The position numbers and the translations under genes are program-made. The notes under the pieces were generated by a model. That model made no database searches and was not told the DNA's origin. It saw only the letters and a list, made by a program, of their open reading frames with translations. A stretch of DNA of 64,000 nt from a virus. Its lineage: Duplodnaviria; Caudoviricetes. The DNA lies in IMG/VR virus record IMGVR_UViG_3300033463_000095, positions 1 through 64,000 of that record. The stretch is one strand, 5' to 3'. Shown here in pieces: positions 1 through 43,315 of the stretch. Numbering within the stretch: position 1 is the first letter of the stretch; each line of letters starts with the position of its first letter.

Positions 1-542
1 CCACTATTTGTAATGAAAGCACTTTCATTAACACTATTTAATTTATCTTGATTAGTTAAGCAATAATCACTATATTCTTTTGAGAAAGTAATTACTTTTG
101 ATATTTCTTGAGTATCAAGTAAATCTAATTTTTTAATTGGGTTATCAACTCCAAACTCTTCACATAATCTTGGAATTGCTTGTTGGTCGAACTTTCCATT
201 ATGAGCGACCATTATTTTAGCATTATATCTATTAATAATTTTTTCTAAGTCTTGTGCCATATCATTAGTACTTACTAATTTATATCTTTTATCATTTTCT
301 AGTTTTTCAAAATAACTTGGATATTTAGTAGCACTAAAAGTTGATAGCATTATATATTTATTATTAAAGAACTTTCTAATTAAATAACTTTTTTCCTTAA
401 CAACCTTCATATTTTCCAAGTCGAAGACCTTTATACCTATCTCAAATGGTAATATACTTTCCGCTACATATAGACTACCTATTGTTTCAGTATCTACAAA
501 TAGCAAATATTTTTGTTTCTTAATGTCAATTTTTTTAATCAT
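1..542 (-). CDS. DEDDh-family 3'-5' exonuclease (runs off window start)
   Basis: Manual translation MIKKIDIKKQKYLLFVDTETIG...MVAHNGKFDQQAI...LDLLDTQEIS gives ExoI (DTET) and ExoII (HNxxFD) motifs. RBS-like GGAAAGGA upstream. Absent from the ORF track because there is no stop in the window. Confidence 0.75.
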   Translation of the reverse strand, partial: MIKKIDIKKQKYLLFVDTETIGSLYVAESILPFEIGIKVFDLENMKVVKEKSYLIRKFFNNKYIMLSTFSATKYPSYFEKLENDKRYKLVSTNDMAQDLEKIINRYNAKIMVAHNGKFDQQAIPRLCEEFGVDNPIKKLDLLDTQEISKVITFSKEYSDYCLTNQDKLNSVNESAFITNS

Positions 543-590
543 TATATCATTTCCTTTCCTATCTCTCATTGATAATATAAGTATATCACA

Positions 591-773
591 TTACCATTTC
601 TTTGTCAATGCTTTTTTAAAAAAATCGTAAATTTTTTTATCTTTTTCACTAATTAAAATTAAACCTATTTTATTACATTTATTTAATTCAGTAAAGCATT
701 TTTCACAAAAATAATATTTACAACCATAACTATTATCCCAATTAATTTCTTTTTCACAAAAATAGCATTTCAT
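591..773 (-). CDS. Small Cys-rich (CxxC...CxxC) protein, possible Zn finger
   Basis: MKCYFCEKEINWDNSYGCKYYFCEKC; GAGGTG RBS and own promoter. Confidence 0.6.
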   Translation of the reverse strand: MKCYFCEKEINWDNSYGCKYYFCEKCFTELNKCNKIGLILISEKDKKIYDFFKKALTKKW

Positions 774-894
774 TTTTATCACCTCTTACATTATAAGTAT
801 ATCATAAGTAGTATAATAAGTCAATAAAAAAAATGTAATTTTTTCATTTTTTTACTTGACACTTTTAGGAATGTAAAGTTTTGTTAATAGTACA

Positions 895-1045
895 AATGTT
901 CAATGTAAAAAAGTGTAAATTGACACAATTTGACACATTGCGGCGCTTCCCTATTTAAACAGCCGGAAACGCGCCGCTTTACATGTCAATTGACATGTAA
1001 AATAAAGGGTTGCCGCAATTAAAAAAGTGTCAATTGACACTTTTA
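895..1045. repeat. TTGACA/TTTACA-rich palindromic element 1 around a GC-rich hairpin
   Basis: GCGGCGC(940-946)...GCGCCGC(971-977) stem; perfect palindromes TTTACATGTCAATTGACATGTAAA (978-1001) and AAAAGTGTCAATTGACACTTTT (1023-1044). Confidence 0.8.
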
Positions 1046-1047
1046 TT

Positions 1048-1212
1048 TTACGCAACTACAATATTATATTTTAGTGCTTTTGCGTTTGCGTTTCTTCCAC
1101 GCAATTTTTTATTAGTTTTACCTTTCTTTGCTAGGTTTTGTGCAGTTCTCATAAATTGTGCGGCGTTCTTATCAACTACCACCTTTTGTACTACATTTTT
1201 TCTTTTTGCCAT
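1048..1212 (-). CDS. 54-aa highly basic peptide
   Basis: MAKRKNVVQKVVVDKNAAQFMRTAQNLAKKGKTNKKLRGRNANAKALKYNIVVA; AGGAGAG RBS and promoter at 1246-1274. Below the ORF-track length cutoff. Confidence 0.6.
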   Translation of the reverse strand: MAKRKNVVQKVVVDKNAAQFMRTAQNLAKKGKTNKKLRGRNANAKALKYNIVVA

Positions 1213-1281
1213 TGTAATCACTCTCCTTTTCTTATTTACAATATTATTATAGCATACTTGAAATTATTAGTCAATAGTTTT

Positions 1282-1446
1282 TTAAAATATTTGTTGTAAA
1301 ATATATAAAGTAATAGGTATTGTTGTAGGTCTTAACCAAAAACCAATAAAATCTCCAACAAATTTAGAAATGTTTTCAATTTTTTGTTTTTTTATTTGAT
1401 ATTCTTGTTCTTGAGTTTTTAACCATAATTCAAATTCATTTTCCAT
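1282..1446 (-). CDS. 54-aa hypothetical protein
   Basis: MENEFELWLKTQEQEYQIKKQKIENISKFVGDFIGFWLRPTTIPITLYILQQIF; GAGGTG RBS and own promoter. Confidence 0.55.
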   Translation of the reverse strand: MENEFELWLKTQEQEYQIKKQKIENISKFVGDFIGFWLRPTTIPITLYILQQIF

Positions 1447-1525
1447 ACCATTCACCTCTTTTATATTATAAGTATATCACTTTTAAAATTATTTGTCAAT
1501 AGTTTTTTAATTAGTTATTCAATTT

Positions 1526-1717
1526 TTAAAATTGAATAACTAATTTTTCACAACCAAACTTTTCAACTACTAATTGATTAAGGGCTTGGATAGTCATATC
1601 TTTATTAATTCCACCCATAACCAATATGTAATCAGCATTATTCATATCACTTTTGTGAATATTCTTTGCGGCAATACTCATAGTTCCATTGTAATCTTTT
1701 TGTAAATATAATATCAT
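1526..1717 (-). CDS. Hypothetical early protein
   Basis: ORF track; RBS and own promoter. Confidence 0.6.
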   Translation of the reverse strand: MILYLQKDYNGTMSIAAKNIHKSDMNNADYILVMGGINKDMTIQALNQLVVEKFGCEKLVIQF

Positions 1718-1812
1718 TTCAATTCCCTCTTTCTTTCATTTCTTACATTATAATTATCTCATATTATTAATTATTTGTCAATAGTTTTTTTATTTTTTGT
1801 TGAGTTAGTTGA

Positions 1813-2022
1813 CTAATCAACTAACTCAACTTCTTCTATCCAAAAGTCCACTCTTTCAGGGAAGCAACAATTAATACTTTCTAAGAAATCTTTATCTTGT
1901 TTTAATTCTTCTATTGCTTTATTTGCTTGTCTTTTTGAAGAGTAGCAATATTTAAAAGTAAATTCTTCATAATCTTCATACTCTTCTCCATTATCATATT
2001 TTACTAAATAGATTTTTTTCAT
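1813..2022 (-). CDS. Small acidic hypothetical early protein
   Basis: ORF track (MKKIYLVKYDNGEEYEDY...); GAGGT RBS and own promoter. Confidence 0.65.
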   Translation of the reverse strand: MKKIYLVKYDNGEEYEDYEEFTFKYCYSSKRQANKAIEELKQDKDFLESINCCFPERVDFWIEEVELVD

Positions 2023-2087
2023 TTTAATTACCTCTCTTTCTTACATTATAAGTATATCATAGTATAGGTATTAAGTCAACACTTTTT

Positions 2088-2276
2088 TTAAAAATTTTTT
2101 ACTTTGTGTATTTTTGGAAGTTCTTGATAAAATGTTTCTCTATCAACAATTTCATTATTACAAAAGTAAACATAATGAGTAGAAACTTGAACGATAAAAA
2201 AACCCTTTCCATAATCACTTATCCAATTTTTTATTTGTAATCTTTTTAATAAATCTTTTACCATTTCTTTATTCAT
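2088..2276 (-). CDS. Hypothetical early protein
   Basis: ORF track; RBS and own promoter. Confidence 0.6.
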   Translation of the reverse strand: MNKEMVKDLLKRLQIKNWISDYGKGFFIVQVSTHYVYFCNNEIVDRETFYQELPKIHKVKNF

Positions 2277-2408
2277 AAAATATTCTCTTCCTTTCTTACA
2301 TTATAATTATCTCATACTATAAGAAAAAAGTCAATACTTTTTTTTAATTTTTTTAATGTGCGGCAACGCACCCTCATGTATCATAAGTTGCACTTTATAC
2401 ATTTTGGG

Positions 2409-2576
2409 AGTGTAAAGTGTAAATTGACAGTTGACATTTGGTTGACAAAAACTTGACATGTAAATTTACATGTCAATCGCGGCGCAGGTGGTGTCAGACT
2501 ACCGTAGGCGCGCCGCTTTACACTTTACATGTAAACTGTCAAATGTTAAAAAGTGTAAAGTTTACATACTTTACAC
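2409..2576. repeat. TTGACA/TTTACA-rich palindromic element 2 around a GC-rich hairpin
   Basis: Perfect palindrome TTGACATGTAAATTTACATGTCAA (2453-2476); GCGGCGC(2479-2485)...GCGCCGC(2510-2516) stem; shares AAAGTGTAAATTGACA and GCGCCGCTTTACA with element 1. Confidence 0.8.
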
Positions 2577-3284
2577 TAATTGCATATAATAATTGTAAAA
2601 TTCAGTTACGCCACCAACCCAATATTGATTTAAATTATTAGGGTCATTTATTGCACCAATAGGACAATACTTAGCACCGATTTCCGCAATTTCATTAAGT
2701 CCCATATCAAAGTAATAAGTTTTTACTATTCTAATAAAGTCATTAAGTCCTTCTTCATATGTTGTATATCTTTTGATTTCACTTGCACCATTACACATTA
2801 TTCCACCAAAATTATTTTTATCATTAAATGCTTTACTAGTCCAATTACCTGTTTCATGTCTTGATATACTTACTAATAATATTGCTTGTTCTTTTGTTAA
2901 ACCATTTTCTATTGCTTTATTATATATATTATTTGCATTATCATTTTGTAAATCTATTACTTTATTTTCTTCTATTTTTTCAGTAATATTATTACTTGTT
3001 TGTGTTTCTATTGTAATTGTTTGTATATTTTCTTTATAAATAACTTTTTCAATTACCTTTGGTTTGTATATATATAATACACTTAATATAATCATTGTAT
3101 ATATAATACTTACTTTTAATATTTTTGGTAATTTATTATATAATTTAATTGTTATTTTATTAATGTTTTTAATAAATAAATAAATCATTGTAATAGTTCC
3201 AATTAAACTATATAATATAGTTCTTACATACTCTTTAAAATAATTTATATATCTTTTCTTTTTATTCTTTTTAATTCTTGTCAT
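2571..3284 (-). CDS. Membrane-anchored glucosaminidase-like (GH73-type) peptidoglycan hydrolase
   Basis: Two N-terminal hydrophobic segments; C-terminal ISRHETGNWTS...NNFGGI...GAKYCP...NDPNNLNQYWVGGV resembles the glucosaminidase/lysozyme-like fold. Confidence 0.65.
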   Translation of the reverse strand: MTRIKKNKKKRYINYFKEYVRTILYSLIGTITMIYLFIKNINKITIKLYNKLPKILKVSIIYTMIILSVLYIYKPKVIEKVIYKENIQTITIETQTSNNITEKIEENKVIDLQNDNANNIYNKAIENGLTKEQAILLVSISRHETGNWTSKAFNDKNNFGGIMCNGASEIKRYTTYEEGLNDFIRIVKTYYFDMGLNEIAEIGAKYCPIGAINDPNNLNQYWVGGVTEFYNYYMQLV

Positions 3285-3323
3285 ATCAATACCTCTTTAT
3301 TAAGAGAACCTTTAAAGGTTCTC

Positions 3324-3509
3324 TTAAAATACCTCATTTGCATAACTTGATTTAATTAATCTATCAATTTGTTTTAATTCTTTTTTATATTCTTTATACA
3401 TTTTATTTGTATCTTTTTCTAATGTATTCATATTTAATTCTATTGTTAAAATATAATCTTTTAATTGTTTTTTATAATTCTTTAATTCTTTAATATTATT
3501 CTTTTTCAT
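3324..3509 (-). CDS. Hypothetical coiled-coil protein
   Basis: ORF track; GAGGT RBS. Confidence 0.55.
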   Translation of the reverse strand: MKKNNIKELKNYKKQLKDYILTIELNMNTLEKDTNKMYKEYKKELKQIDRLIKSSYANEVF

Positions 3510-3648
3510 AATTTATACCTCTTTCATTTTTTTTTATTATTTACTTGAAAGAGTTTTTCAACTCTTTCAAGTATTAGTTTTTTGTTTTTACTTTTCTTCG
3601 TTGTTTTCACTCATGTTGTCAATTATCATTTGAATAATTTCTTCCATT

Positions 3649-3834
3649 TTATTCACTCTCTCTTTCTTTTTCTATTTTTTCAATTCTTTGATAAAGTTCT
3701 TCGATTTGGTAATACTCATTTTCTTTATCATCATCATTAAAATTATTTTCTTCCATTTCTTTGTAAACTTTTCTTTGTAATTCATAAAGTCCTTTTCTAA
3801 TCAATTCTAATTCTTTATTATTTAATTCTTTCAT
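3649..3834 (-). CDS. Hypothetical charged protein
   Basis: ORF track; RBS and promoter at 3870-3898. Confidence 0.6.
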   Translation of the reverse strand: MKELNNKELELIRKGLYELQRKVYKEMEENNFNDDDKENEYYQIEELYQRIEKIEKERESE

Positions 3835-3948
3835 TTTAATTCCTTCTTTCTTTATTTATTTACAATTTAATTATAAACCTTTATTAGTTAATTGTCAATA
3901 CTTTTTTAAAAATTTTTTTATTTTTTTTTATTTTCTTGTAAAGTAGAT

Positions 3949-4131
3949 TTATTTATCTACTTTACAAGAAAAGTACTTGTCACCTTGATTAGTATAGTTT
4001 GTAATAACATTATCTTTTCCATTACAACGGTCTATTGCTTTTTTGTATTCATTATTACTCATTTTATTTAATACTAAAATACAAATTACAATTCCTACTA
4101 TACATAATACTTGGTAAAATTTTTCTTTCAT
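3949..4131 (-). CDS. Small protein with N-terminal TM segment and two C-terminal-region Cys
   Basis: ORF track; promoter at 4167-4195. Confidence 0.6.
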   Translation of the reverse strand: MKEKFYQVLCIVGIVICILVLNKMSNNEYKKAIDRCNGKDNVITNYTNQGDKYFSCKVDK

Positions 4132-4267
4132 TTTCTTTCCCTCTTTTCCTCTCTCATTGTACTTTAATTATACACCCATTCTAAAATAATGTCAATAGTT
4201 TTTCAAAAAATAATTATAAATTTTTTTAATAGTGTAAAGTATTTATTATAAAAATAATTTATAACAA

Positions 4268-4304
4268 AAAAATGCTTCTAATCGATTAGAAGCAAAAATT
4301 TTTT
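4268..4304. terminator. Bidirectional intrinsic terminator
   Basis: GCTTCTAAT-CG-ATTAGAAGC inverted repeat flanked by A/T tracts. Confidence 0.65.
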
Positions 4305-4310
4305 AATAAA

Positions 4311-4431
4311 TAGAGAGAGGGTTGCAACTCTACCTGGCGTTTCTTCTTAGTCAACTCTACGGGGCGTACCTTTTAGGAAAAAATGAAACGCCAGGACGCG
4401 TTGCCCCTTTGTCACGACACTACTCTCTCCA
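4311..4431 (-). ncRNA. Candidate structured RNA, family unassigned
   Basis: GC-rich non-coding stretch with nested stems: AGAGAG/CTCTCT, GCAAC/GTTGC, and an 11-bp CCTGGCGTTTC(4333-4343)/GAAACGCCAGG(4385-4395). Strand is inferred from the upstream gene and downstream terminator. Confidence 0.4.
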
Positions 4432-4550
4432 AAATATTTTTCCATTTCTAACCACGATCTTTTTATGAAAAACTCATCTTCCTCTTTCACTTAAATTCCA
4501 TTTCTAAATATACGCAAGCACGCTTTAGACTCCGTTATCGAAGCCCGCCG

Positions 4551-4703
4551 CTAATATCTTCCTTTTTCAATTCTTTTTTTATAATCTTTTGGTTTTGCTT
4601 TTGATCCTGTTACCACATTTATCATTTCATAAATACTCCTTTTTACTATTTTTTCAGGTTTTGGTAATAATCTTTCAGGTAATCTAAACTTTCTTTTACT
4701 CAT
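4551..4703 (-). CDS. 50-aa basic peptide
   Basis: MSKRKFRLPERLLPKPEKIVKRSIYEMINVVTGSKAKPKDYKKRIEKGRY; start overlaps the stop of the upstream gene. Confidence 0.5.
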   Translation of the reverse strand: MSKRKFRLPERLLPKPEKIVKRSIYEMINVVTGSKAKPKDYKKRIEKGRY

Positions 4704-5103
4704 ATTGCACCCAACCTCTTTTAGGTATCATCTTCTCAAAATAAATATAATTACAATCTTCCATAACTATTTGATAACCTCTAACACTCAAATAAGCATT
4801 TATCTCATCTTCATATTCATTATAAAAATCTTTATTTAAATATAAGCTAGTTGGTTTTCCAATCAATAACCTATCTATTTCATATTTCCATGCGGAAGCA
4901 TCGCTATGTCCGGACGTATCTACCTCATCAGATTCCTTACCGGCGTCGCCGCATTCAAATACATATTTTTTACTTTTATTATCATAAGTTACATACAAAG
5001 GTGGATCATCATTTTTTAATATCAATTCTTTATCTATCTCAACTCTTGTTAAACCTAAACTTATCATTAAAACATAAACACTTTTTATTAATTCATCACT
5101 CAT
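4696..5103 (-). CDS. Hypothetical protein
   Basis: ORF track, 135 aa; promoter at 5136-5164. Confidence 0.65.
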   Translation of the reverse strand: MSDELIKSVYVLMISLGLTRVEIDKELILKNDDPPLYVTYDNKSKKYVFECGDAGKESDEVDTSGHSDASAWKYEIDRLLIGKPTSLYLNKDFYNEYEDEINAYLSVRGYQIVMEDCNYIYFEKMIPKRGWVQYE

Positions 5104-5135
5104 TATAACACTTCCTTTTTTATTTTTCTATAATA

Positions 5136-5213
5136 ATTATATTAAAAATTTTAATCAAAATCAATTAATCTTTTTAAATCACGCTTGACCATCAAAAAAT
5201 TTTGTGATATAAT
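5136..5213. promoter_or_regulatory. Divergent sigmaA-type promoter pair
   Basis: Minus strand TTGATT-17-TATAAT (5164-5136); plus strand TTGACC-17-TATAAT with extended -10 TG (5185-5213). Confidence 0.8.
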
Positions 5214-5241
5214 TATACTATAAGAGAGATTAAGAAAGGAG

Positions 5242-6336
5242 ATGCTTAATACGGAAACTAAAAAATTAGATTATACATTAAAAGATGCGGCAGCTCGTCA
5301 GGAATTCGTAACCGAGCTTTTACCCACTTTAACGAAAGAACAATTAAATAGTAAAAAATATATGGAAATATTGGCTGATTATATTGTTTCCGCAATGACT
5401 CCAGAAGAAAAAAAAGAAAAATTAATCTTAACTGACAATAGACTAGTAACTGTAAATAAAAGAGAAACTTCATTTCAAAGTCTTGTTGATAAATTTGAAA
5501 ATGGCGAAGATGGTCTTTGAAATTTAATGATAGAAAATGATAAAAATGTATTATTAACTCATAAAAAAGAAATAACTAAAAAAGATTTAGAAGAAATAAA
5601 AGATTTAAATGATTTAAAAGAAAGTATTGCAATAATAGAAAAAATGGAAAAGGCGGCAACCGGTAAGAAAAAATTTAAGTTAAAAAAATGATTAATTGAA
5701 ATGCATCAAGAACAATATATTATAAAAGATGCTTACCGCAATGCGGTAACACCTACTTCCGCAGCAATTAAAAATTTAACAAAAGCAAGATTAAATGAAG
5801 AAATAACTATAGATGAAGATGGTGAACCTCATAGTAATTGTTTAATAGATTTATTTAACCCAACTCATATTAGTGCATTACTATGTAATTATTCTGCACT
5901 TAAAGAAGATTGTTGAGGTAATTTTTCTTGAGACTTTTGGTATTTAATGGAAGACTTAGATGTTTTAGTAGATGACACATTAAGAGAAAAATATCCATTA
6001 TATTATAAATTATTAATTTATAAAATAGATGGTAGAAGTAATGCAGAAATCCAAGAAGCATTAAACGATGAATTTGGTATTACTTATACTGTCGAATATT
6101 TATCTTCTTTATGGCGTAATAAAATACCTAAATTAATTGCGGAAAAAGCTAAAGAAAATTATTTAATTTGATATTATACTTATAAAGAATATGGTAAATG
6201 AAAAAGATGTTCTAAATGTGGTCAAGTCAAATTAGCTCATAACAGATTTTTTTCAAAAAATAACACTTCTAAAGACCATTTTTACAGTATATGTAAAGAA
6301 TGTAGAAACAAGAAGAATAAAGAAGGTGTTAATTAA
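5242..6336 (+). CDS. 364-aa protein with HTH-like segment and C-terminal Zn ribbon; candidate regulator
   Basis: Joins ORF fragments 5242, 5701 and 5947 through 6 in-frame TGA. Contains GRSNAEIQEALNDEFGITYTVEYLSSLWRNKI and ends in CSKC...CKEC. Confidence 0.7.
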
Positions 6337-7550
6337 TGGCTACTAAATACTGTCCAAAATGTAATAAAACTATGGATGCTGATACTAAATTTTATCAAAA
6401 ACGTAATGGGGAAAAAACTGATTTATGTAAAGAATGTTTAACTATGCATATTGATAATTTTAATCCTGATACTTATGTATGAATATTAAAAGATTTAGAT
6501 TTCCCTTATGTTCCAGAAGAATGAGATGTTATTAGAAATAGAGCTTTTGAAACTGCAAGACAAAAAGGAAAAGAATTAAATGGAATGTCTGTTTTTGGTA
6601 AATATTTGGCGAAAATGCGTATTAAACAATTTTTAGGCAAAGGTTGAGCTGATTCAGAGAAGATACAAGAAGAATATGAAACCAGAAGAAAACAGAATGC
6701 AGCGGCTAAGGAACAACATGAAGCTATTCTAAAAGGTCAGTTCGAGAATGGAGAAATAACTGAAGCTCAATATAGAACTTTAATGAGTGTTGAAGAACAA
6801 GCTAAAGAGTATGCGGCAGCCCCTGTGGTAGCTCCAGAAGAGGTTGAGAATCCTTATGGTGATGGAAGTTCATTTATGGACGATGCTGCAATTAAAAGTC
6901 TTGGTGCAGACTTGACTGAAGAAGATAAAACTTATTTATTAATGAAATGAGGTAAATATTATCATCCTTGAGAGTGAGTTGAATTAGAAAAGAAATATAA
7001 TGAAATGATGCAATCATTTGATATTCAAGATGCTGATACAATGAATACGCTTATTCTTATTTGTAAAACTGATTTAAAAATGAATCAAGCTCTTGATACT
7101 GCAGATATTGAAGGATATCAAAAATTATCAAAGGTAAGTAATGATTTACGTAAATCTGCAAAATTCACTGCTGCTCAAAACAAAGAACAAAATGCAGATT
7201 TTGTAGATTCTATTGGTGAATTGGTTGCTTATTGTGAAAAAAATGGTGGAATTATTCCCAAATATGAAATTACAACGCCTCAAGATATAATAGATACTGT
7301 TATTCAAGATTTAAAAAATTATACAAAAGATTTAATTTATGAAGATAAATCATTAGCAAAACAAATCGAAGATTATTTAAAAAAGGTTGAAATTGCAAAA
7401 CAAATGAAAATAGATTTAAAAGAAGCAAAAGAAGCTGGTTTAGATGCTGTTGAAATAAAAGATGAAGATTTAGTTGATTATGAAGATTCTTTACAAGAGC
7501 AAAGAGAACAAGATGCGGAAATGCTTAATGAAAGTCTTGGTGATGAATAA
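6336..7550 (+). CDS. 404-aa protein with N-terminal Zn finger, upstream of TerL (possible terminase small subunit)
   Basis: MATKYCPKC...CKEC; open under code 4 into the 7005-7550 fragment; ATG overlaps the previous TAA. Function inferred from position only. Confidence 0.6.
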
Positions 7551-11513: not shown

Positions 11514-12884
11514 ATGATGCATCAATCAATTGCAACTATAGACTCTCCTGAGTTTATCAATCTACAACCTTTAGAGATTAACCCACTAATGAGCAGCTGT
11601 GAAATAAAAGTTTTATATCTAGGTGAAAATAGAAACCATAGTTATATAACTAAAGAAGTTGCGACAGAAATGGCAAAAACTCTACGTGGAGCGCCTATTG
11701 TTGGATATTACAAAGATGAAAAAGAAGATTTTAGAGACCATGGTGAAAAATTAATTATTGATGATGAAGGTATTAAATTTGAGTGTTTAACTAAACCTTA
11801 TGGTTTCGTAGCTCCAGATGCCAAAGTATGGTTTCAAAAATTTGAAGATACCGATGAGTTTGGTAACAAGATAAATAGAGAATATCTTATGACCACTGGG
11901 TATCTATGGACAGGTCAATTTGAAGAAGCTAAATTAGCTATTGATGAAGGTCGTCCTCAATCAATGGAGTTAGATGAGCAAACTTTAGATGGACATTGGT
12001 CAACAAATAATAATACAGGTATGGACTTTTTCATAATAAATGATGCTATCTTTTCAAAATTATGCATTCTTGGAGAAGATGTTGAACCTTGCTTCGAAGG
12101 AGCTCGCATTACCGCACCAGAAGTAAGTAAAACATTTACAAAAATGGATGATAATTTTAAAAGAACATTATTTACTATGATGCAAGATTTACAATCTGTA
12201 TTAAAAGGAGGATACAAAATGGAACTAGAAGATCAAAATGTTGAAACTGAAGTTACTACTGCTATTGAAGAAGAAGTAACTAATGTAGAAGAAGAATCTG
12301 TTGAAACTCCTGAAAATGAAACTGAAGCTCCTGAGGAAGAAGCTAAAGAAGAACAAGAAGAAGTTGCTGCAGAAGAAACTGATATTTCCATTGAAGCTAC
12401 TCAAGAAGAAAAAGCAGAAAATGAAGAAGAATTAATTGACACTGAAGACACAGAAGAAAACGCTAGTGAAGAAAATGTAGAAGAAGATTATGCTTTAATA
12501 AAGAGTGAAAATGAAGAATTAAAAACAAAATTTGCGGAAATGGAAGCAAAATATCAAGAGTTAGTAGCATTTAAAGAAGCTGTAGATAATAAAGAAAAAG
12601 ACGCTTTAATCGATAGTTTCTATATGTTATCTGACGAAGATAAAAAGGACGTTATTGAAAATAAATCAAACTATTCTCTAGATGAGATTGAAGCAAAATT
12701 ATCAGTAATTTGTGTTAGAAAAAAGGTTAATTTTGATTTAGATAATTCATCAAAAAGTGAAGATAAAGTAGAAACAGAAGATAAAGAAGAAGTTGCTACA
12801 ACTTATACTTTAGAAGAAACTGATTCTACTATTGTTCCTGAGTTTATACAAGCTTTAAGAAATAATAGAGATAGTAAAGAATAA
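11514..12884 (+). CDS. Prohead protease/scaffold protein
   Basis: N-terminal globular domain (GENRN...PIVGYY...QSMEL...LCILGEDVEPCFEGA) followed by a long acidic low-complexity tail; upstream of capsid genes. Confidence 0.65.
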   Translation: MMHQSIATIDSPEFINLQPLEINPLMSSCEIKVLYLGENRNHSYITKEVATEMAKTLRGAPIVGYYKDEKEDFRDHGEKLIIDDEGIKFECLTKPYGFVAPDAKVWFQKFEDTDEFGNKINREYLMTTGYLWTGQFEEAKLAIDEGRPQSMELDEQTLDGHWSTNNNTGMDFFIINDAIFSKLCILGEDVEPCFEGARITAPEVSKTFTKMDDNFKRTLFTMMQDLQSVLKGGYKMELEDQNVETEVTTAIEEEVTNVEEESVETPENETEAPEEEAKEEQEEVAAEETDISIEATQEEKAENEEELIDTEDTEENASEENVEEDYALIKSENEELKTKFAEMEAKYQELVAFKEAVDNKEKDALIDSFYMLSDEDKKDVIENKSNYSLDEIEAKLSVICVRKKVNFDLDNSSKSEDKVETEDKEEVATTYTLEETDSTIVPEFIQALRNNRDSKE

Positions 12885-12908
12885 TTTTAATAAGGAGGAT
12901 ATAAAACC

Positions 12909-13439
12909 ATGAAAATTACAAGAAAAGGTTTTGGTCAAGTTGAACCTAATCATTTATCTGCACAAAGAAATGGACAAATTTATGCTCAATTACCATTAGA
13001 TAGTGAATACACAGGTGTTCTTGAAAATGGTCAATTCATGAAATATGATTATGAAAATGGTAAGGTTGGTTTAACTGGAGACATTGATGAATATTTCTTA
13101 GTTTATAACGAAGTTAAAGTTTATGATGAAAGAGATTCTTATAAAGATTTCGCTATGAAAAAAGAAAATTATGTTGGTGGAGAAATTTATCCAAGATTAT
13201 TCAAAACTAATATTGGAGATATCTACACAACAAACTGTGTTGGTTTAGCTAACACTGATAAAAATGCTAGTGTTACTTATAATACTGAATTATCTCTTGG
13301 AGATAAATTAGAAGTAGATACTAGTACAGGATATTTAGTAAAAAATAATGGAAGTACTGCAAATATGATTTGGCAAGTTGTAAAAACTTATACTATGCCA
13401 GATGGACAAGATGCTGTAAAAATTCAAAGAATAAAATAG
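12909..13439 (+). CDS. Head decoration/minor capsid protein (putative)
   Basis: ORF track; strong RBS; directly before the major capsid gene. Confidence 0.55.
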   Translation: MKITRKGFGQVEPNHLSAQRNGQIYAQLPLDSEYTGVLENGQFMKYDYENGKVGLTGDIDEYFLVYNEVKVYDERDSYKDFAMKKENYVGGEIYPRLFKTNIGDIYTTNCVGLANTDKNASVTYNTELSLGDKLEVDTSTGYLVKNNGSTANMIWQVVKTYTMPDGQDAVKIQRIK

Positions 13440-13459
13440 TTTAAGGAGGATTTATAATT

Positions 13460-14506
13460 ATGGAATTTAAAGATTTATCTAAATTAGCAAAACTTGCTAG
13501 TACTGTAAAACCTTCTTCTACTTATTCTTTCGGTGAAGAAACTTACACTGCTAAAGAAATTAATGAAACATTAAGAAAAGAATTAAACAGTATTGCTGGA
13601 GCTAATTATCATTTATATGAACAAAACAAACATACAATCTTCGCTTTAATCGAAGAAACAATCGACGATGTTCTTCCTCAAAGAGTTTTAGAAGAATATG
13701 GTCAATTTGCTGAAATTAAACAAGTTGCTCAAGGTGACAAAGCTATTTTCAGACAAAAAGTAACTGCTGCTTCAAGAAGAAGAGCAAAACAATTCATTAC
13801 AAAAGTTGGTTTAGCAGGCGTTTATGAAGTATTTAAATTAGATGGTAAAAGTTATGAATTACCAGTAACTGCATTCGGTGGCGCTGCTCAAATCTCTATC
13901 GAAGAATTCTTAGATGGTAGATTAGATTGGAATGAATTAGTAGAAATCGTTATGGAAGGTTTAGATGAAGCTATTTATTTAGAAATAGAAAAAGCTTTAA
14001 TCGGAGCTGTTGATGAATTAGGAGAATATAATAAATATGCAGGTATCGGATTTAATGAACAAGCTATGGATAGCTTAATTGCTGTAGCTGATAGTTATGG
14101 AAGATCTACTATTTATTGTACATTCGAATTCGCAGCTACTATGATTCCTAGTGATAGTAGAATGTCTGATGCTATGAAAGATAGAATTTGGAACAATGGT
14201 CTTTTAGGAACTTATAAAGGACATAATGTTATCGTATTAAATCAATCATTAGTAGATGAAACTAATTCTAGAAAAGTTATTGATCCAGCTTATGCATGGA
14301 TTATCCCAGCTGGAGCAAATGAAAAACCAGTTAAAATTGCTTTCGAAGGTCAAACATTAGTTGATGATAGAAAGAATGATGATTGGTCTAAAGAAATTCA
14401 AGTTTACAAAAAACTTGGAGTTGGTGCTTTAATTACTAATAATATCTGTGTTTATAGAAATGCAGCATTAACAAAAGATGTAGTAATCCCAGCTAGTTCA
14501 ATTTAA
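13460..14506 (+). CDS. Major capsid protein
   Basis: 348 aa, strong AAGGAGG RBS, high-expression codon bias, position in the head module, followed by a terminator. Confidence 0.8.
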   Translation: MEFKDLSKLAKLASTVKPSSTYSFGEETYTAKEINETLRKELNSIAGANYHLYEQNKHTIFALIEETIDDVLPQRVLEEYGQFAEIKQVAQGDKAIFRQKVTAASRRRAKQFITKVGLAGVYEVFKLDGKSYELPVTAFGGAAQISIEEFLDGRLDWNELVEIVMEGLDEAIYLEIEKALIGAVDELGEYNKYAGIGFNEQAMDSLIAVADSYGRSTIYCTFEFAATMIPSDSRMSDAMKDRIWNNGLLGTYKGHNVIVLNQSLVDETNSRKVIDPAYAWIIPAGANEKPVKIAFEGQTLVDDRKNDDWSKEIQVYKKLGVGALITNNICVYRNAALTKDVVIPASSI

Positions 14507-14522
14507 TTTTAAAAATATAACT

Positions 14523-14578
14523 TGGGAAGGTTAAAAATTTCTTATAATAGAGATATTTTTACCTTCCCATTTTTTTAT
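14523..14578 (+). terminator. Probable terminator after the capsid gene
   Basis: TGGGAAGGT...ACCTTCCCA followed by a T-tract; long loop. Confidence 0.5.
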
Positions 14579-14602
14579 TAGGAGAGAAAAGGAGTTTTAT
14601 AT

Positions 14603-15193
14603 ATGAGAGAAATAGACAATAAAGAAATTATTAAAGTTACTAACAGATTTAATGGTTCTGTTGGTTATACAATTAGAGATTTAAATAATCTATCTAGAGT
14701 GTTTAGTCCAAATGAAACAAAAGAAATTACAATGGAAGAGTTAAGAAAATTATCTTGGGAAACAGGCGGCCGCACTTTAATTAACGATTATTTAATTATT
14801 CAAGATGAAGACGCTTTAAAAGAAATTTTAGGTAGTCCTGAACCTGAATATTATTATACAGAAGAAGATGTAAAAGATTTATTATTAAATAAATCATTAG
14901 ATGCTTTAAAAGATTGTTTAGATTTTGCCCCAAGAGGAACAATTGATTTAGTTAAAAAATTAGCAGTTGAATTACCTTTAAATGATGTGGCTAAAAGACA
15001 AGCTATTTTAGAAATGACTGGATTTAATGTTACTTCTGCAATTGAAATCAATGAAGCAACAAAAGAAGAGCAACCTGTAAATAATACAGGATTTAGAAGA
15101 ATAGATAGTAAGCCTGAAAAAGAACCAGAAAAACCTACTGGAAGAAGAGTAGCTGTTGTTAACGATAATAAATATAAAGTTGTTAATAAATAA
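14603..15193 (+). CDS. Hypothetical head-module protein
   Basis: ORF track, 196 aa. Confidence 0.65.
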   Translation: MREIDNKEIIKVTNRFNGSVGYTIRDLNNLSRVFSPNETKEITMEELRKLSWETGGRTLINDYLIIQDEDALKEILGSPEPEYYYTEEDVKDLLLNKSLDALKDCLDFAPRGTIDLVKKLAVELPLNDVAKRQAILEMTGFNVTSAIEINEATKEEQPVNNTGFRRIDSKPEKEPEKPTGRRVAVVNDNKYKVVNK

Positions 15194-40334: not shown

Positions 40335-40697
40335 ATGTTTATAATAGATGGAGATACTTTTCATGTTACATGAGGAGATAAAGGTTCATTTGATTTAACA
40401 TTTGAAGATTATACTTTTCAACCTGATGATGAGGTTTATTTAAGAGTATATGAAGAAGATGCTATGGATGAAGAACCTGTCTTAGATAAAAAATTAGTGG
40501 TAGATGCGGCAACTGATACTGTTACTATGAATTTATTAAAAGCAGATACTAAACTAGGCGAACCAAGCAATGAAAGACAAACTTATTGATATGAAATTAC
40601 ATTAGGTCACGATGGTTCAATTCCAGATCAAACACCATTTTGTTTTAATGATAAGGGACCTAAGTTATTCTACATATATCCAGGAGGTGTTGAATAA
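40335..40697 (+). CDS. BppU N-terminal-like baseplate/fibre attachment protein (120 aa)
   Basis: MFIIDGDTFHVTWGDKG...YWYEITL...YPGGVE; two TGA; strong RBS; stop overlaps the next ATG. Confidence 0.55.
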
Positions 40698-43315
40698 TGG
40701 CAGGAAGTGCTAATTCAATAGTTGCACGTAATGTATTAAAAGGTACTCTTAATGCAAATAATTTAATGGAAGGACATGTAGATACCGCTTTTAATCCTAC
40801 TTATGCTCTTGTAGATGAAGCAGGCAATCAAATTGCTTTATATATTGATAGTTCTAATTATCAATTTTATGCAGAATTAAAAGATAAAAATGGTAATCAT
40901 ATAAATAGTTCCAATATTATTGATTTACCTCTTGAATCAATGGTTGTAAATGGAAGTTATGATGCTGAAACTAAAGAAGTTGTACTTACACTTAACAATG
41001 GTAATGAAGTAAGATTTAGTGTAGCAGATTTAGTTGAAGGTTTAGTTAGTACTGAACAATTAACTACTATATTAGGAGACTATGTTAAATTTACTAATTA
41101 TGCTGGTAATAGTATAAGTGGAGTATTTAAAACATCTAATGACTATGCAACAGAAACAAATAATGGTATATTAACCTCACAAACTAAAACTTATTCAGAG
41201 TACAATAATTTAAACAATAATGCTTTTATTTCAAAAAGTACTCTTGAAAATGTAATAACAGGTAAGGAATTAACTAATAAAACATATGTTGATAATGCAG
41301 ATGCAGTATTTGAAGAAGATTTATTTGGTAATGAAACTGTTAGTGGTAGTGGAGAAACTATTACCTTAAATAATACTACTGATAAAACACCACTAAAAAT
41401 AGACTTAAAAGGTAATACTTATCAAAATGGAGAGCCAACACCAGATACACCAATAGGCATACACGTAGTAAGTGGAGATAACTCTATTAAGGTAGAGGGG
41501 AAGAATTTTGCTTACTTTCCTAATGGAACTGACACAAAAAACGGAATAGATTTAACAGCACAAAATGGAATTGTAACATTAAACAATACTGCTACAGCAA
41601 ATGCAATTTTTAATTTTGCATTACCACATTATATTGAAAGTAATACTGTATGTACTATATCATTAAATAACTCAACAATTAATACAGGAGTAAGTGTAAG
41701 ACTATATGGAGAAACAACAGGAGATACTGAAACATCTTCAAATACGGAAGCAGATACTATAAATAAAACCAATACATTTACAACTACAAAAATATGTAAA
41801 GGTATAGGAGTTAGAGTAGGAAACGGAAAAACGGTAAATAATTTTGAATTAAAAATACAATTAGAAAAAAAAGATAGTGCAACCTCATACACCCCTTATG
41901 TATCACAAAGCTATCCTATAAATATTGGTTATGATTTACCAAGTGATTATCAGCAAGTGGAATATATTGAAACTGATGGAAATCAATATATAGATACAGG
42001 TTATTACTTAAATTCCAACAATCTTAATATAAAAACAAAAATATATACTCCAAATATACCAAGTGCAGAACAAGATATCTTGTCAAATCAAGATGAAACA
42101 ACAGGAAGATTTGTATTAGGATTATTTTCTAAAAGAGTATTTGGTTATAGTAAATATGGTTCAAGTAGTCCAGAAACTAATGTTTTCTCACCTTTTTATA
42201 ATGGAGAAGCGACATTAGATATTGAAATGGATTATAATAGTGCAACACAAATAAAAACATTGATAGTTAATGGAGAAACTAATACAGAATCTTTTAAAAA
42301 TAGTATTTCTAATTCAAATCAAAATATAAGATTATTTTGGAATACGTCAGTAAGCTCAACAACTGCACATTTCATAGGTAAAATATATTCAATGCAAATA
42401 AAAATTGATAATAGCTTGAAATTTAAATTTATTCCTTGTTATAGAAAAAGTAATAATGAAATAGGTCTATATGATTTAGTAAGCAATACTTTCTTTATAA
42501 ATCAAGGTACTGGAACATTCACAAAAGGAAATGATATACCCAATGGAATGGAACTATGTAAAATAGGAACATACCAAGATTATATAGTAAAAGATAATGG
42601 TAAATGGTACTTAAAAAAGGAAATAGGTAAAGTTGTATTGGATGGTAGTGAGGATTGGAATGTTTCTTCTTATTGGGGAAAAATTAATACTAATGTATAT
42701 TATGCTACTACTAAAAATGATATATATTTTCCTGATTGGACTAGCAATTATTGTCTATCTAATTATTTTACAACGTATGCAAGAAGTGCTTTATATTTTC
42801 TTGATGAAGATGGTTTTGGTTTTAGTGGAACAGGTGGAATAACAAACCCAAGTTTTACTATAAGAATTGATAAAACATTAGCAAGTGACACTCAAAACTT
42901 TCAAACTTGGTTATCAACACATAACACAATAGTCTATTATGTACTAGCAACACCAACTTATGAAGAAATAACCGATAGTACACTTATTAATCAATTAAAT
43001 GCTTTAGAAAAAGCAAATTCTTACGATAATCAAACTAACATTTCACAAGTGAATAACGATATGCCATTTGAACTTGCGGTAACCGCCTTTATAGATAGTA
43101 CTGCGGGTAAGTTAGCAGCAGCTGCCGCACAAATTAACACTCTTAATGAGGTAGATGATAATTTATCAGCTAACAAAGAAGATAAATCAAATAAAGTAGC
43201 AACCATTTCCGCATCAAGTACAGATACAGAATATCCTACAGCAAAATGTGTATATGATATAATTGGAGATATAGAAACCCTATTAACAACTCTTGATATT
43301 GGAAGCGGGGTGTAA
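40697..43315 (+). CDS. Tail fibre/receptor-binding protein 1 (872 aa)
   Basis: ORF track; contains one copy of the about 200-aa YxQVEYIExxGxQYIDTG beta module. Confidence 0.75.
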   Translation: MAGSANSIVARNVLKGTLNANNLMEGHVDTAFNPTYALVDEAGNQIALYIDSSNYQFYAELKDKNGNHINSSNIIDLPLESMVVNGSYDAETKEVVLTLNNGNEVRFSVADLVEGLVSTEQLTTILGDYVKFTNYAGNSISGVFKTSNDYATETNNGILTSQTKTYSEYNNLNNNAFISKSTLENVITGKELTNKTYVDNADAVFEEDLFGNETVSGSGETITLNNTTDKTPLKIDLKGNTYQNGEPTPDTPIGIHVVSGDNSIKVEGKNFAYFPNGTDTKNGIDLTAQNGIVTLNNTATANAIFNFALPHYIESNTVCTISLNNSTINTGVSVRLYGETTGDTETSSNTEADTINKTNTFTTTKICKGIGVRVGNGKTVNNFELKIQLEKKDSATSYTPYVSQSYPINIGYDLPSDYQQVEYIETDGNQYIDTGYYLNSNNLNIKTKIYTPNIPSAEQDILSNQDETTGRFVLGLFSKRVFGYSKYGSSSPETNVFSPFYNGEATLDIEMDYNSATQIKTLIVNGETNTESFKNSISNSNQNIRLFWNTSVSSTTAHFIGKIYSMQIKIDNSLKFKFIPCYRKSNNEIGLYDLVSNTFFINQGTGTFTKGNDIPNGMELCKIGTYQDYIVKDNGKWYLKKEIGKVVLDGSEDWNVSSYWGKINTNVYYATTKNDIYFPDWTSNYCLSNYFTTYARSALYFLDEDGFGFSGTGGITNPSFTIRIDKTLASDTQNFQTWLSTHNTIVYYVLATPTYEEITDSTLINQLNALEKANSYDNQTNISQVNNDMPFELAVTAFIDSTAGKLAAAAAQINTLNEVDDNLSANKEDKSNKVATISASSTDTEYPTAKCVYDIIGDIETLLTTLDIGSGV

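What the first reader, a model, noticed from the sequence alone, without database searches (positions are those of the whole stretch)
1..5103. Leftward early block uses only TGG, and TGA use starts at the divergent promoter
Seen: all 10 Trp codons I found in the minus-strand genes from 591 to 5103 are TGG. The first gene past the divergent promoters (5242-6336) has 6 TGA versus 2 TGG, and ThyX has 6 TGA and no TGG. In such AT-rich DNA a freely usable TGA should be favoured. Inference: these genes must be translated by an unmodified standard-code host before a phage recoding factor appears, so the code would act as a developmental switch. Alternative: the block came recently from a code-11 phage. 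Caveat: other sigmaA-driven genes (glycosyltransferases) do use TGA, so a simple early/late split does not fit everything.
Basis: partly seen in the sequence, partly recalled or inferred. Interest (0 to 1): 0.8.

Follow-up and report, generated by a model that had tools for sequence, protein, structure and literature searches.

The report
TGA-free early genes in recoded phage
A gut or rumen phage that reads the stop codon TGA as tryptophan keeps TGA out of a block of small, probably early, genes; this is real and conserved in related phages, but it fits a published model of phage code switching rather than a new mechanism.

Summary
The 12 small minus-strand genes at 591-5103 have 0 TGA and 10 TGG. 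The rest of the 72-kb contig has 153 TGA and 101 TGG (Fisher p=1.4e-4). Other A/G codon pairs in the block are 89% A-ending.

TGA means Trp: it swaps with TGG at aligned positions in 32 relatives. The avoidance is conserved. Leftward gene families lying more than 1.5 kb from the sigma gene in TGA-using relatives have 2 TGA and 75 TGG, so recent import from a code-11 phage is unlikely.

The contig is a fragment with no tRNA genes. All five large relatives (100-144 kb) carry a Trp-like tRNA with a UCA anticodon and no RF or TrpRS gene. Recoding is therefore phage-driven, probably on a standard-code host.

It needs three qualifications:
- The head genes (11514-15193, 0/9; 7/140 in relatives) are also TGA-free, so expression level matters as well as timing.
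- An 89-aa leftward gene in sister phages, behind the homologous promoter, uses TGA freely (21/12).
- Sigma70-like promoters also precede TGA-rich genes.

"ThyX" (6336-7550) is not supported. Noticed in passing: the relatives' UCA tRNA has a second, CCA-bearing anticodon-like arm.

The parts
591..5103 (-). Leftward block of 12 small genes: 591-782, 1048-1221, 1282-1455, 1526-1717, 1813-2022, 2088-2276, 2571-3284, 3324-3509, 3649-3834, 3949-4131, 4551-4703, 4696-5103. Together they have 0 TGA and 10 TGG. All stop codons are TAA or TAG.
   Evidence: Five of the genes have conserved homologues in relatives.
2571..3284 (-). Cell-wall hydrolase (glucosaminidase-like) inside the block. It has 0 TGA and 2 TGG; its homologues in relatives have 0 TGA and 2-3 TGG each.
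   Evidence: PDB 8yxk_A 'Phage cell wall hydrolase', E=1.4e-8. Weak Pfam Glucosaminidase hit. Counts in relatives.
552..4195 (-). Cluster of near-consensus sigma70-type promoters (TTGACA-17-TATAAT, 11-12 of 12 matches). Their -10 ends lie at 580, 1246, 1471, 1753, 3870 and 4167. Terminator-like hairpins lie at 2476-2453 and 4294-4273.
   Evidence: These are consensus matches only; function was not shown.
3..569 (-). N-terminal 189 aa of a polymerase-exonuclease-like ORF, cut by the contig start. It has no Trp codons. It follows the block on the same strand and has its own promoter.
   Evidence: phrog_192, E=3.2e-8. Relatives continue for about 65 aa beyond residue 197.
5104..5241 (.). Divergent promoter region. 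Leftward: TTGATT-17-TATAAT. Rightward: TTGACC-17-TATAAT with TG. The region is conserved in relatives.
5242..6336 (+). Putative phage sigma factor with a C-terminal zinc-finger/HNH-like tail. It has 6 TGA and 2 TGG; the first TGA is at codon 93.
   Evidence: phrog_5767 'sigma factor', E=1.7e-43. TGA positions. The fold search is inconclusive: sigma-H 3mzy_A, Z 6.6, 72 residues aligned, rmsd 3.2.
6336..7550 (+). It has 6 TGA and 0 TGG; orthologues in relatives have 86 TGA and 36 TGG.
11514..15193 (+). Head-gene island, including the probable major capsid gene at 13460-14506. It has 0 TGA and 9 TGG and is a second TGA-free island among late genes.
   Evidence: Orthologues in relatives sum to 7 TGA and 140 TGG. 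The capsid gene of the TAG-recoded L031 has no TAG.
40697..43315 (+). 872-aa gene of unknown function with 0 TGA and 6 TGG. Only partly conserved in relatives.

Best explanation
The contig is a fragment of a large (about 125-145 kb) virulent phage of gut or rumen Bacillota. The phage reads TGA as Trp only partly, and through its own tRNA(UCA).

The host most likely uses the standard code and has RF2. Any gene that must be fully translated before enough suppressor tRNA has built up therefore has to avoid in-frame TGA.

The leftward block at 591-5103 is such a set. It consists of small, fast-evolving genes, many behind their own strong host-type promoter, and it looks like a host-takeover or early module. 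Selection removes TGA there, even though mutation bias favours A-ending codons about 9 to 1.

Genes with TGA can be transcribed early yet only completed once the tRNA is present. Examples are the putative sigma gene and the gene at 6336-7550. The code thus acts as a gene-by-gene translational delay.

A second selective force keeps TGA out of the most abundantly made head proteins: decoding by a suppressor that competes with RF2 is inefficient.

Shown: the codon counts, TGA = Trp, conservation of the avoidance, and tRNA(UCA) in relatives. Inferred: early timing, the host's code, and presence of the tRNA in this particular phage.
For: - TGA = Trp. TGA and TGG interchange at aligned, conserved positions of four genes in 32 related loci.
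- Block counts of 0/10 against 153/101 elsewhere, p=1.4e-4. A-ending fraction 0.89 in the same genes. The avoidance is frame-specific.
- Conserved in TGA-using relatives. Leftward families more than 1.5 kb from sigma have 2 TGA and 75 TGG. Every family that includes a window gene has 0 TGA.
- Strong sigma70-like promoters are concentrated in the block.
- Relatives of 100-144 kb hold 5-28 tRNAs. G001, G003 and G004 have an intact tRNA(UCA) with a Trp-type acceptor; G002 and G005 have a split copy. None has TrpRS or an RF gene.
- The family mixes codes. L017-L019 show no TGA use and L031 uses TAG.
- Only 53% of genes carry TGA. Borges et al. report 26-71% for phages of standard-code hosts and about 90% for phages of recoded hosts.
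- The two genomes with related endolysins both have RF2.
Against: - Timing was not measured.
- This contig holds no tRNA. The suppressor is inferred from relatives and from the contig being a fragment.
- Late head genes are just as TGA-free. Timing is therefore not needed to produce a TGA-free island.
- In five relatives, an 89-aa gene behind the homologous leftward promoter is TGA-rich, at 21/12.
- Sigma70-like promoters also precede TGA-rich genes at 5242, 49494 and 56831.
- The block contains a cell-wall hydrolase, which is not a typical early function.
- The sample is small: 10 Trp codons.
Confidence: 0.6

Rival explanations
1. Expression level alone explains the pattern. TGA is decoded slowly or leakily, so any strongly expressed gene avoids it, whatever its timing. 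The block is TGA-free because of its very strong promoters, just as the head genes are.
For: - Head island 0/9 in the window and 7/140 in relatives.
- The TAG-recoded relative L031 also keeps its capsid gene free of TAG.
- The block has 11-12/12 consensus promoters.
- Genome-wide TGA share (58%) is well below the A-ending bias of about 90%, so TGA is costly everywhere.
Against: - NrdD and polymerase genes are also TGA-poor: 8/19 here, and 9/77 across the run of replication-arm genes that contains them in G001. I would not expect these to be among the most abundant products.
- The sigma gene has an 11/12 promoter with TG yet has 6 TGA.
- No expression data exist.
Confidence: 0.25
2. The block was recently acquired from a standard-code phage and has not yet accumulated TGA.
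For: - The block's gene content is highly variable between relatives; six of its twelve genes have no homologue in the 32 loci.
- The family includes members that do not use TGA.
Against: - Gene families shared by many TGA-using relatives stay TGA-free: 0/37, 0/15, 0/10 and 0/7.
- Codon bias (A-ending 0.89, GC3 0.145) matches the rest of the genome.
- The divergent promoter region is conserved.
Confidence: 0.05
3. The host itself uses code 4, so no switch exists. The TGG preference in some genes would then have another cause.
For: - No tRNA, RF or TrpRS gene in the 72-kb contig.
- Very AT-rich genome.
Against: - Relatives carry their own tRNA(UCA).
- Sister phages use code 11 or TAG recoding.
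- Only 53% of genes have TGA.
- Two peptidoglycan hydrolases are encoded, which argues against a wall-less Mollicute host.
- Candidate host genomes have RF2.
Confidence: 0.05
4. Chance: only 10 Trp codons happen to be TGG.
For: Small sample and post hoc choice of region.
Against: - Fisher p=1.4e-4.
- Scan-corrected run test: P=0.007 for the longest run, and below 5e-5 for the top two.
- Independent replication in relatives, 2/75.
Confidence: 0.02

Closest known systems
[quoted passage not shown]
   Same: - TGA read as Trp in only part of the genes.
- Relatives of about 125-145 kb from animal and human guts.
- Codes 4, 11 and 15 mixed within the clade.
- A phage TGA-suppressor tRNA.
- Replication genes poor in TGA.
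- A homing endonuclease with TGA inside an early polymerase gene (69976-70755, 2 TGA and 0 TGG).
- The same proposed standard-to-alternative code switch during infection.
   Different: - Clade membership could not be tested, because no Agate reference sequence was to hand.
- The TGA-free set here is a block of small genes, many with their own sigma70-like promoters.
- The head genes are also TGA-free, whereas that paper stresses recoding of structural and lysis genes.
- The endolysin here is mostly TGG (2/7).
phAss-1 / proposed Phassvirus group (PMC10607447)
   Same: - Portal protein 36% identical over 94% of its length.
- Large gut phage with a tRNA array and suppressor tRNAs.
- Predicted Bacillota (Clostridia) host.
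   Different: phAss-1 recodes TAG, not TGA. The similarity is distant, so this phage is not in that genus.
Host-takeover early modules of large Bacillus phages such as SPO1 (from my own knowledge)
   Same: Many small genes of unknown function, each behind a strong host sigmaA promoter, at one side of the genome.
   Different: No sequence similarity was found. Timing is unproven here, and SPO1 does not recode.
Phages of hosts that natively use code 4 or code 25
   Same: In-frame TGA is read as an amino acid.
   Different: - TGA here is Trp, not Gly.
- Only 53% of genes carry it.
- Relatives bring their own tRNA(UCA).
- Peptidoglycan hydrolases are present.

Membership tests
Partially TGA-recoded phage on a standard-code host (Borges model) | In-frame TGA at conserved Trp positions of bona fide phage genes | tested here: met
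   TGA and TGG interchange at aligned positions of sigma, 6336-7550, the terminase and the portal in 32 loci. Code 4 restores full-length terminase, portal and tail genes.
Partially TGA-recoded phage on a standard-code host (Borges model) | Only a subset of genes recoded, with TGA-free gene sets | tested here: met
   40 of 75 genes carry TGA. TGG-only runs of 11, 10 and 9 exceed shuffles.
Partially TGA-recoded phage on a standard-code host (Borges model) | Phage-encoded UGA suppressor tRNA | tested here: inconclusive
   None in the 72-kb contig, but the contig is a fragment. All five large relatives have one, intact or split.
Partially TGA-recoded phage on a standard-code host (Borges model) | Host uses the standard code (has RF2) | tested here: inconclusive
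   The host is not identified. The two genomes with related endolysins (an uncultured Bacilli MAG and a Lachnospiraceae MAG) have prfB above the cut-off.
Partially TGA-recoded phage on a standard-code host (Borges model) | TGA-free genes are expressed before the code switch | not testable with these tools
   Only promoter-consensus matches are available.
Agate clade (Borges et al.) | Placement in the terminase phylogeny or ANI with named Agate genomes | not tested
Only descriptive features match.
Phage of a native code-4 host (Mycoplasma/Spiroplasma type) | Nearly all genes use TGA; no need for a phage suppressor; wall-less host | tested here: not met
   53% of genes carry TGA. Relatives have tRNA(UCA). 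Cell-wall hydrolases are present.
Code 25 (TGA=Gly) phage of Gracilibacteria/Absconditabacteria | TGA aligns with Gly | tested here: not met
   Aligned codons are TGG, then TAT/TAC. GGN codons are essentially absent.
ThyX (label given to 6336-7550) | Match to the Thy1/ThyX family | tested here: not met
   No Pfam family at E<=0.001. No PDB sequence match at E<=1. Only phrog_3314, of unknown function.

The most novel reading that the evidence does not exclude
The code switch sits upstream of the transcription cascade. The putative phage sigma gene (5242-6336) is transcribed from a host-type promoter next to the early block. Its six in-frame TGAs (first at codon 93; 69 TGA and 70 TGG across relatives) would block full-length sigma, and hence late transcription, until the phage tRNA(UCA) matures.

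That tRNA is itself unusual. Its variable arm is a covarying hairpin that copies the CCA anticodon loop of tRNA-Trp, possibly to keep recognition by host TrpRS. In some relatives it must first lose a ~620-670-nt insert carrying an ORF.
Probability: 0.25. Interest if true: 0.65.

Novelty: new member of a known kind. Interest (0 to 1): 0.3.

Why it matters
This locus is a clear, replicated example of partial recoding. Within a few hundred bases of one divergent promoter region, genes go from 0% to 75-100% TGA. The TGA-free state is held by selection across a whole phage family.

It supports the published idea that phages use a private genetic code to time translation. It also adds a caution: the most abundant late proteins avoid the recoded codon too, so codon maps alone cannot be read as expression-timing maps.

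For annotation, it shows why mixed-code gene calling is needed. The family's odd tRNA(UCA) may interest people who build orthogonal translation systems.

Tried and rejected
- Code 25 (TGA=Gly): rejected by codon swaps.
- A Ser-type suppressor, suggested by the 95-97-nt length and ARAGORN's 'SeC' label: rejected. The acceptor stem, G73 and anticodon stem are tRNA-Trp-like, and the extra arm is a CCA anticodon-loop copy.
- Complete 72-kb circular genome, suggested by an in-frame ORF across the joined contig ends: rejected. In G001 the two halves belong to different genes about 55 kb apart. The exonuclease ORF lacks its last ~65 aa and the polymerase ORF lacks its first ~125 aa.
- A possible TGA-bearing gene in the gaps 2277-2570 or 4132-4550: rejected. 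These gaps hold a terminator and a promoter, and the ORFs are not conserved.
- The raw count of TGA in relatives' leftward ORFs overstated use. Many were read-through fusions or spurious 5' extensions. It was replaced by counts on conserved alignment columns.
- Sigma fold. The model had mean pLDDT 64.6. Foldseek against the PDB gave nothing at E<=0.001. VIA-align gave a sigma-H match tied with generic helical hairpins.
- Rfam found no tRNA or other family at gathering score in the window.
- Group I intron models did not match the insert in the G002 tRNA. There was only a weak HDV-like hit (19 bits, E=0.85) just 3' of it.
- A literature search found no description of a suppressor tRNA with a second anticodon-like arm. 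That is not proof of absence.
Full report
**What the sequence is**

The window is the first 64 kb of a 72,016-bp viral contig with 28.6% GC. Under code 11 the plus-strand genes beyond 5242 fall into pieces. Under code 4 they become full-length genes for a terminase, portal, tail proteins and two giant proteins of 2621 and 2790 aa.

TGA means tryptophan. In 32 related IMG/VR loci found with the 5242-6336 protein, codons aligned to the window's TGAs are TGG or TGA, with some TAT/TAC. Codons aligned to the window's TGGs are often TGA. Glycine codons are essentially absent, so this is code 4 and not code 25.

The nearest named relatives are a 12-kb human faecal phage fragment (portal 62% identical) and the TAG-recoded gut phage phAss-1 (36%). 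Large Enterococcus and Bacillus siphophages follow at 25-28%.

**Checking the observation**

The minus-strand ORFs between 591 and 5103 are identical under codes 11 and 4. I added two short genes that are conserved in relatives (1048-1221 and 4551-4703). I dropped three ORFs that lie over conserved genes, a terminator or a promoter. That leaves 12 genes.

- The 12 genes have 975 codons, 0 TGA, 10 TGG, and only TAA or TAG stops.
- The next genes rightward have 6 TGA/2 TGG (5242-6336) and 6/0 (6336-7550).
- The contig as a whole has 153 TGA and 111 TGG.
- Fisher's test of the block against the rest gives p=1.4e-4.
- In the same 12 genes the other A/G two-fold codon pairs are 89% A-ending, so mutation bias should favour TGA strongly.
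- TGA is frequent in the two other frames of these genes (92 copies) and absent only in frame.
- Allowing for post hoc choice of region, TGG-only runs along the genome are 11, 10 and 9 codons long. P=0.007 for the longest, and no shuffle of 20,000 matched the top two.

It is, however, one of several TGA-poor islands. The others are the head genes at 11514-15193 (0/9), gene 40697-43315 (0/6), and NrdD plus the polymerase (8/19).

**What the block looks like**

Seven of the thirteen intergenic sigma70 matches scoring at least 11 of 12 in the whole contig lie at 580-4167 on the minus strand. Six of them sit directly upstream of small block genes, and the one at 580 is upstream of the exonuclease-like ORF. 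Two are perfect TTGACA-17-TATAAT. Terminator-like hairpins separate some genes.

Most of the proteins have no family. Gene 2571-3284 is a cell-wall hydrolase (PDB 8yxk_A, E=1.4e-8). Gene content varies greatly between relatives.

This is the anatomy of an early or host-takeover module. Its timing is inferred, not shown.

**Is the avoidance conserved?**

I clustered leftward ORFs from the TGA-using relatives into families with at least three distinct sequences. I then counted codons only in well-occupied alignment columns.

- Families more than 1.5 kb from the sigma gene have 2 TGA and 75 TGG. Examples are a 160-aa family at 0/37 and 62- and 67-aa families at 0/15 and 0/10.
- Every family that includes a window gene has 0 TGA.
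- In the same phages, orthologues of sigma, 6336-7550 and the terminase have 69/70, 86/36 and 53/64.

This argues against recent import from a code-11 phage. The block's codon bias, which matches the rest of the genome, argues the same way.

The rule is not absolute. Within 1.5 kb of the sigma gene the count is 24/25. Most of that comes from a well-conserved 89-aa protein in five relatives (21/12), which sits behind the homologue of the window's leftward promoter. An earlier raw count had overstated TGA use, because it included read-through fusions and false 5' extensions.

**The recoding factor**

The contig has no tRNA gene, but it is a fragment. Joining its ends gives an in-frame ORF. In the 134.9-kb relative G001, however, the two halves of that ORF belong to different genes about 55 kb apart. 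The window's exonuclease ORF lacks its last ~65 aa, and the polymerase ORF at the far end lacks its first ~125 aa.

In relatives the missing stretch holds a tRNA array. The five large relatives (100-144 kb) have 5-28 tRNAs each.

- G001, G003 and G004 carry a 95-97-nt tRNA with anticodon UCA, as well as a tRNA-Trp(CCA).
- G002 and G005 carry the same gene split after position 33 by about 620-670 nt. In G002 the insert holds a 153-aa ORF.
- None has a TrpRS or a release-factor gene.

The family also contains members without TGA use (L017-L019) and a TAG-recoded one (L031). Only 53% of this contig's genes carry TGA. Two genomes with related endolysins, an uncultured Bacilli MAG and a Lachnospiraceae MAG, both encode RF2.

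Together this points to phage-driven suppression on a standard-code, walled Bacillota host. The host itself is not identified.

**Mechanism**

The best reading is that in-frame TGA is a stop for the host's RF2 until the phage tRNA(UCA) accumulates. Genes that must work first are therefore kept TGA-free by selection. TGA-bearing genes may be transcribed early but are completed later. Among them is the putative sigma gene, which has its own 11/12 promoter.

A second force is needed. The head genes, surely late and abundant, are equally TGA-free here (0/9) and in relatives (7/140). The TAG-recoded L031 likewise has no TAG in its capsid gene. Inefficient suppression would explain this, and it could in principle explain the block as well, so I keep that rival at 0.25.

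Replication genes being TGA-poor favours a timing component: 8/19 here, and 9/77 across the run of replication-arm genes that includes NrdD and the polymerase in G001.

**Comparison with what is known**

Borges et al. (bioRxiv 10.1101/2021.08.26.457843) describe exactly this model:
- alternatively coded gut phages on standard-code Firmicutes and Bacteroidetes hosts;
- suppressor tRNAs;
- 26-71% of genes recoded;
- early genes compatible with the standard code;
- a switch part-way through infection.

[quoted passage not shown] They mix codes 4, 11 and 15, keep replication genes in the standard code, and have a TGA-rich intron endonuclease inside an early gene. This contig matches that description: a GIY-YIG endonuclease at 69976-70755 (2 TGA/0 TGG) splits the polymerase gene. 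I could not test clade membership directly.

The details worth keeping are:
- the sharp 0% to 75-100% step at one divergent promoter region;
- family-wide conservation of the TGA-free state;
- the TGA-rich 89-aa exception;
- the TGA-free head genes.

**Side finding**

The relatives' tRNA(UCA) has a tRNA-Trp-like acceptor stem (A1-U72, G73) and anticodon stem. Its long 'variable arm' is a 5-bp hairpin with the 7-nt loop CUCCAAA, which is a copy of the tRNA-Trp(CCA) anticodon loop.

A pattern scan of IMG/VR found 34 loci, from which ARAGORN called 20 distinct tRNA sequences. In the extra helix, four of five pairs show compensatory changes and 99% of cells pair. The scan pattern fixed the loop sequence, so only the stem covariation is independent evidence.

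I found no description of this tRNA in the paper library. It may keep TrpRS recognition of a UCA-anticodon tRNA; that is speculation.

**Verdict**

This is a new member of a known kind, of modest interest.

Noticed in passing
Relatives, not the window: L064:8093-8188 (+), L067:1371-1467 (-), L068:2766-2860 (-); 34 more loci, L085-L118: The family's UGA-decoding tRNA is Trp-like (A1-U72, G73, Trp-type anticodon stem, anticodon UCA). Its long variable arm is a second anticodon-arm look-alike: a 5-bp stem with the loop CUCCAAA. There are 20 distinct sequences in IMG/VR, and 4 of 5 stem pairs covary. I found no description in the papers searched.
   Followed up: partly
L065:9450-10146 (G002) and G005:C1:99216-99918: In two relatives the tRNA(UCA) gene is split after position 33, in the anticodon loop, by about 620-670 nt. 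In G002 the insert carries a 153-aa ORF on the same strand. No Rfam intron match was found. There is a weak HDV-like ribozyme hit (19 bits, E=0.85) just 3' of the tRNA, which recalls the 'theta ribozymes' reported next to phage suppressor tRNAs (PMC10879173).
   Followed up: partly
window 11514-15193: The head genes, including the probable capsid gene, have 0 TGA and 9 TGG. Orthologues in TGA-using relatives have 7 TGA and 140 TGG, and the TAG-recoded L031 has no TAG in its capsid gene. The most abundant late proteins avoid the recoded codon.
   Followed up: yes
window 1-590 and contig 71002-72016: The contig ends join in frame into a 535-aa ORF. This is a chance fusion of two cut genes (an exonuclease-like ORF and a polymerase) that lie about 55 kb apart in G001. 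The 72-kb record is a fragment lacking the tRNA region.
   Followed up: yes
contig 63927-71811 (L063): NrdD is split by a homing-endonuclease gene (65464-65964). The DNA polymerase is split by a GIY-YIG endonuclease gene (69976-70755, 2 TGA and 0 TGG). This matches the TGA-rich intron endonuclease reported in Agate phages.
   Followed up: partly
window 61350-61802 (-): A phage-encoded peptide deformylase (Pfam Pep_deformylase, E=5e-35) sits behind an 11/12 sigma70-like promoter. It has 0 TGA and 2 TGG.
   Followed up: no
L001:4466-4735, L002:2173-2442, L006:1646-1915, L008:9589-9858, L020:8712-8981 (all -): A conserved 89-aa Trp-rich protein is the first leftward gene in five relatives and is absent from the window. 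It uses TGA for most of its Trp codons (21 TGA, 12 TGG) despite a sigma70-like promoter.
   Followed up: partly
It has no Pfam or PDB sequence match and belongs to phrog_3314, of unknown function. It is the most TGA-rich conserved family, with 86 TGA and 36 TGG in relatives.
   Followed up: partly
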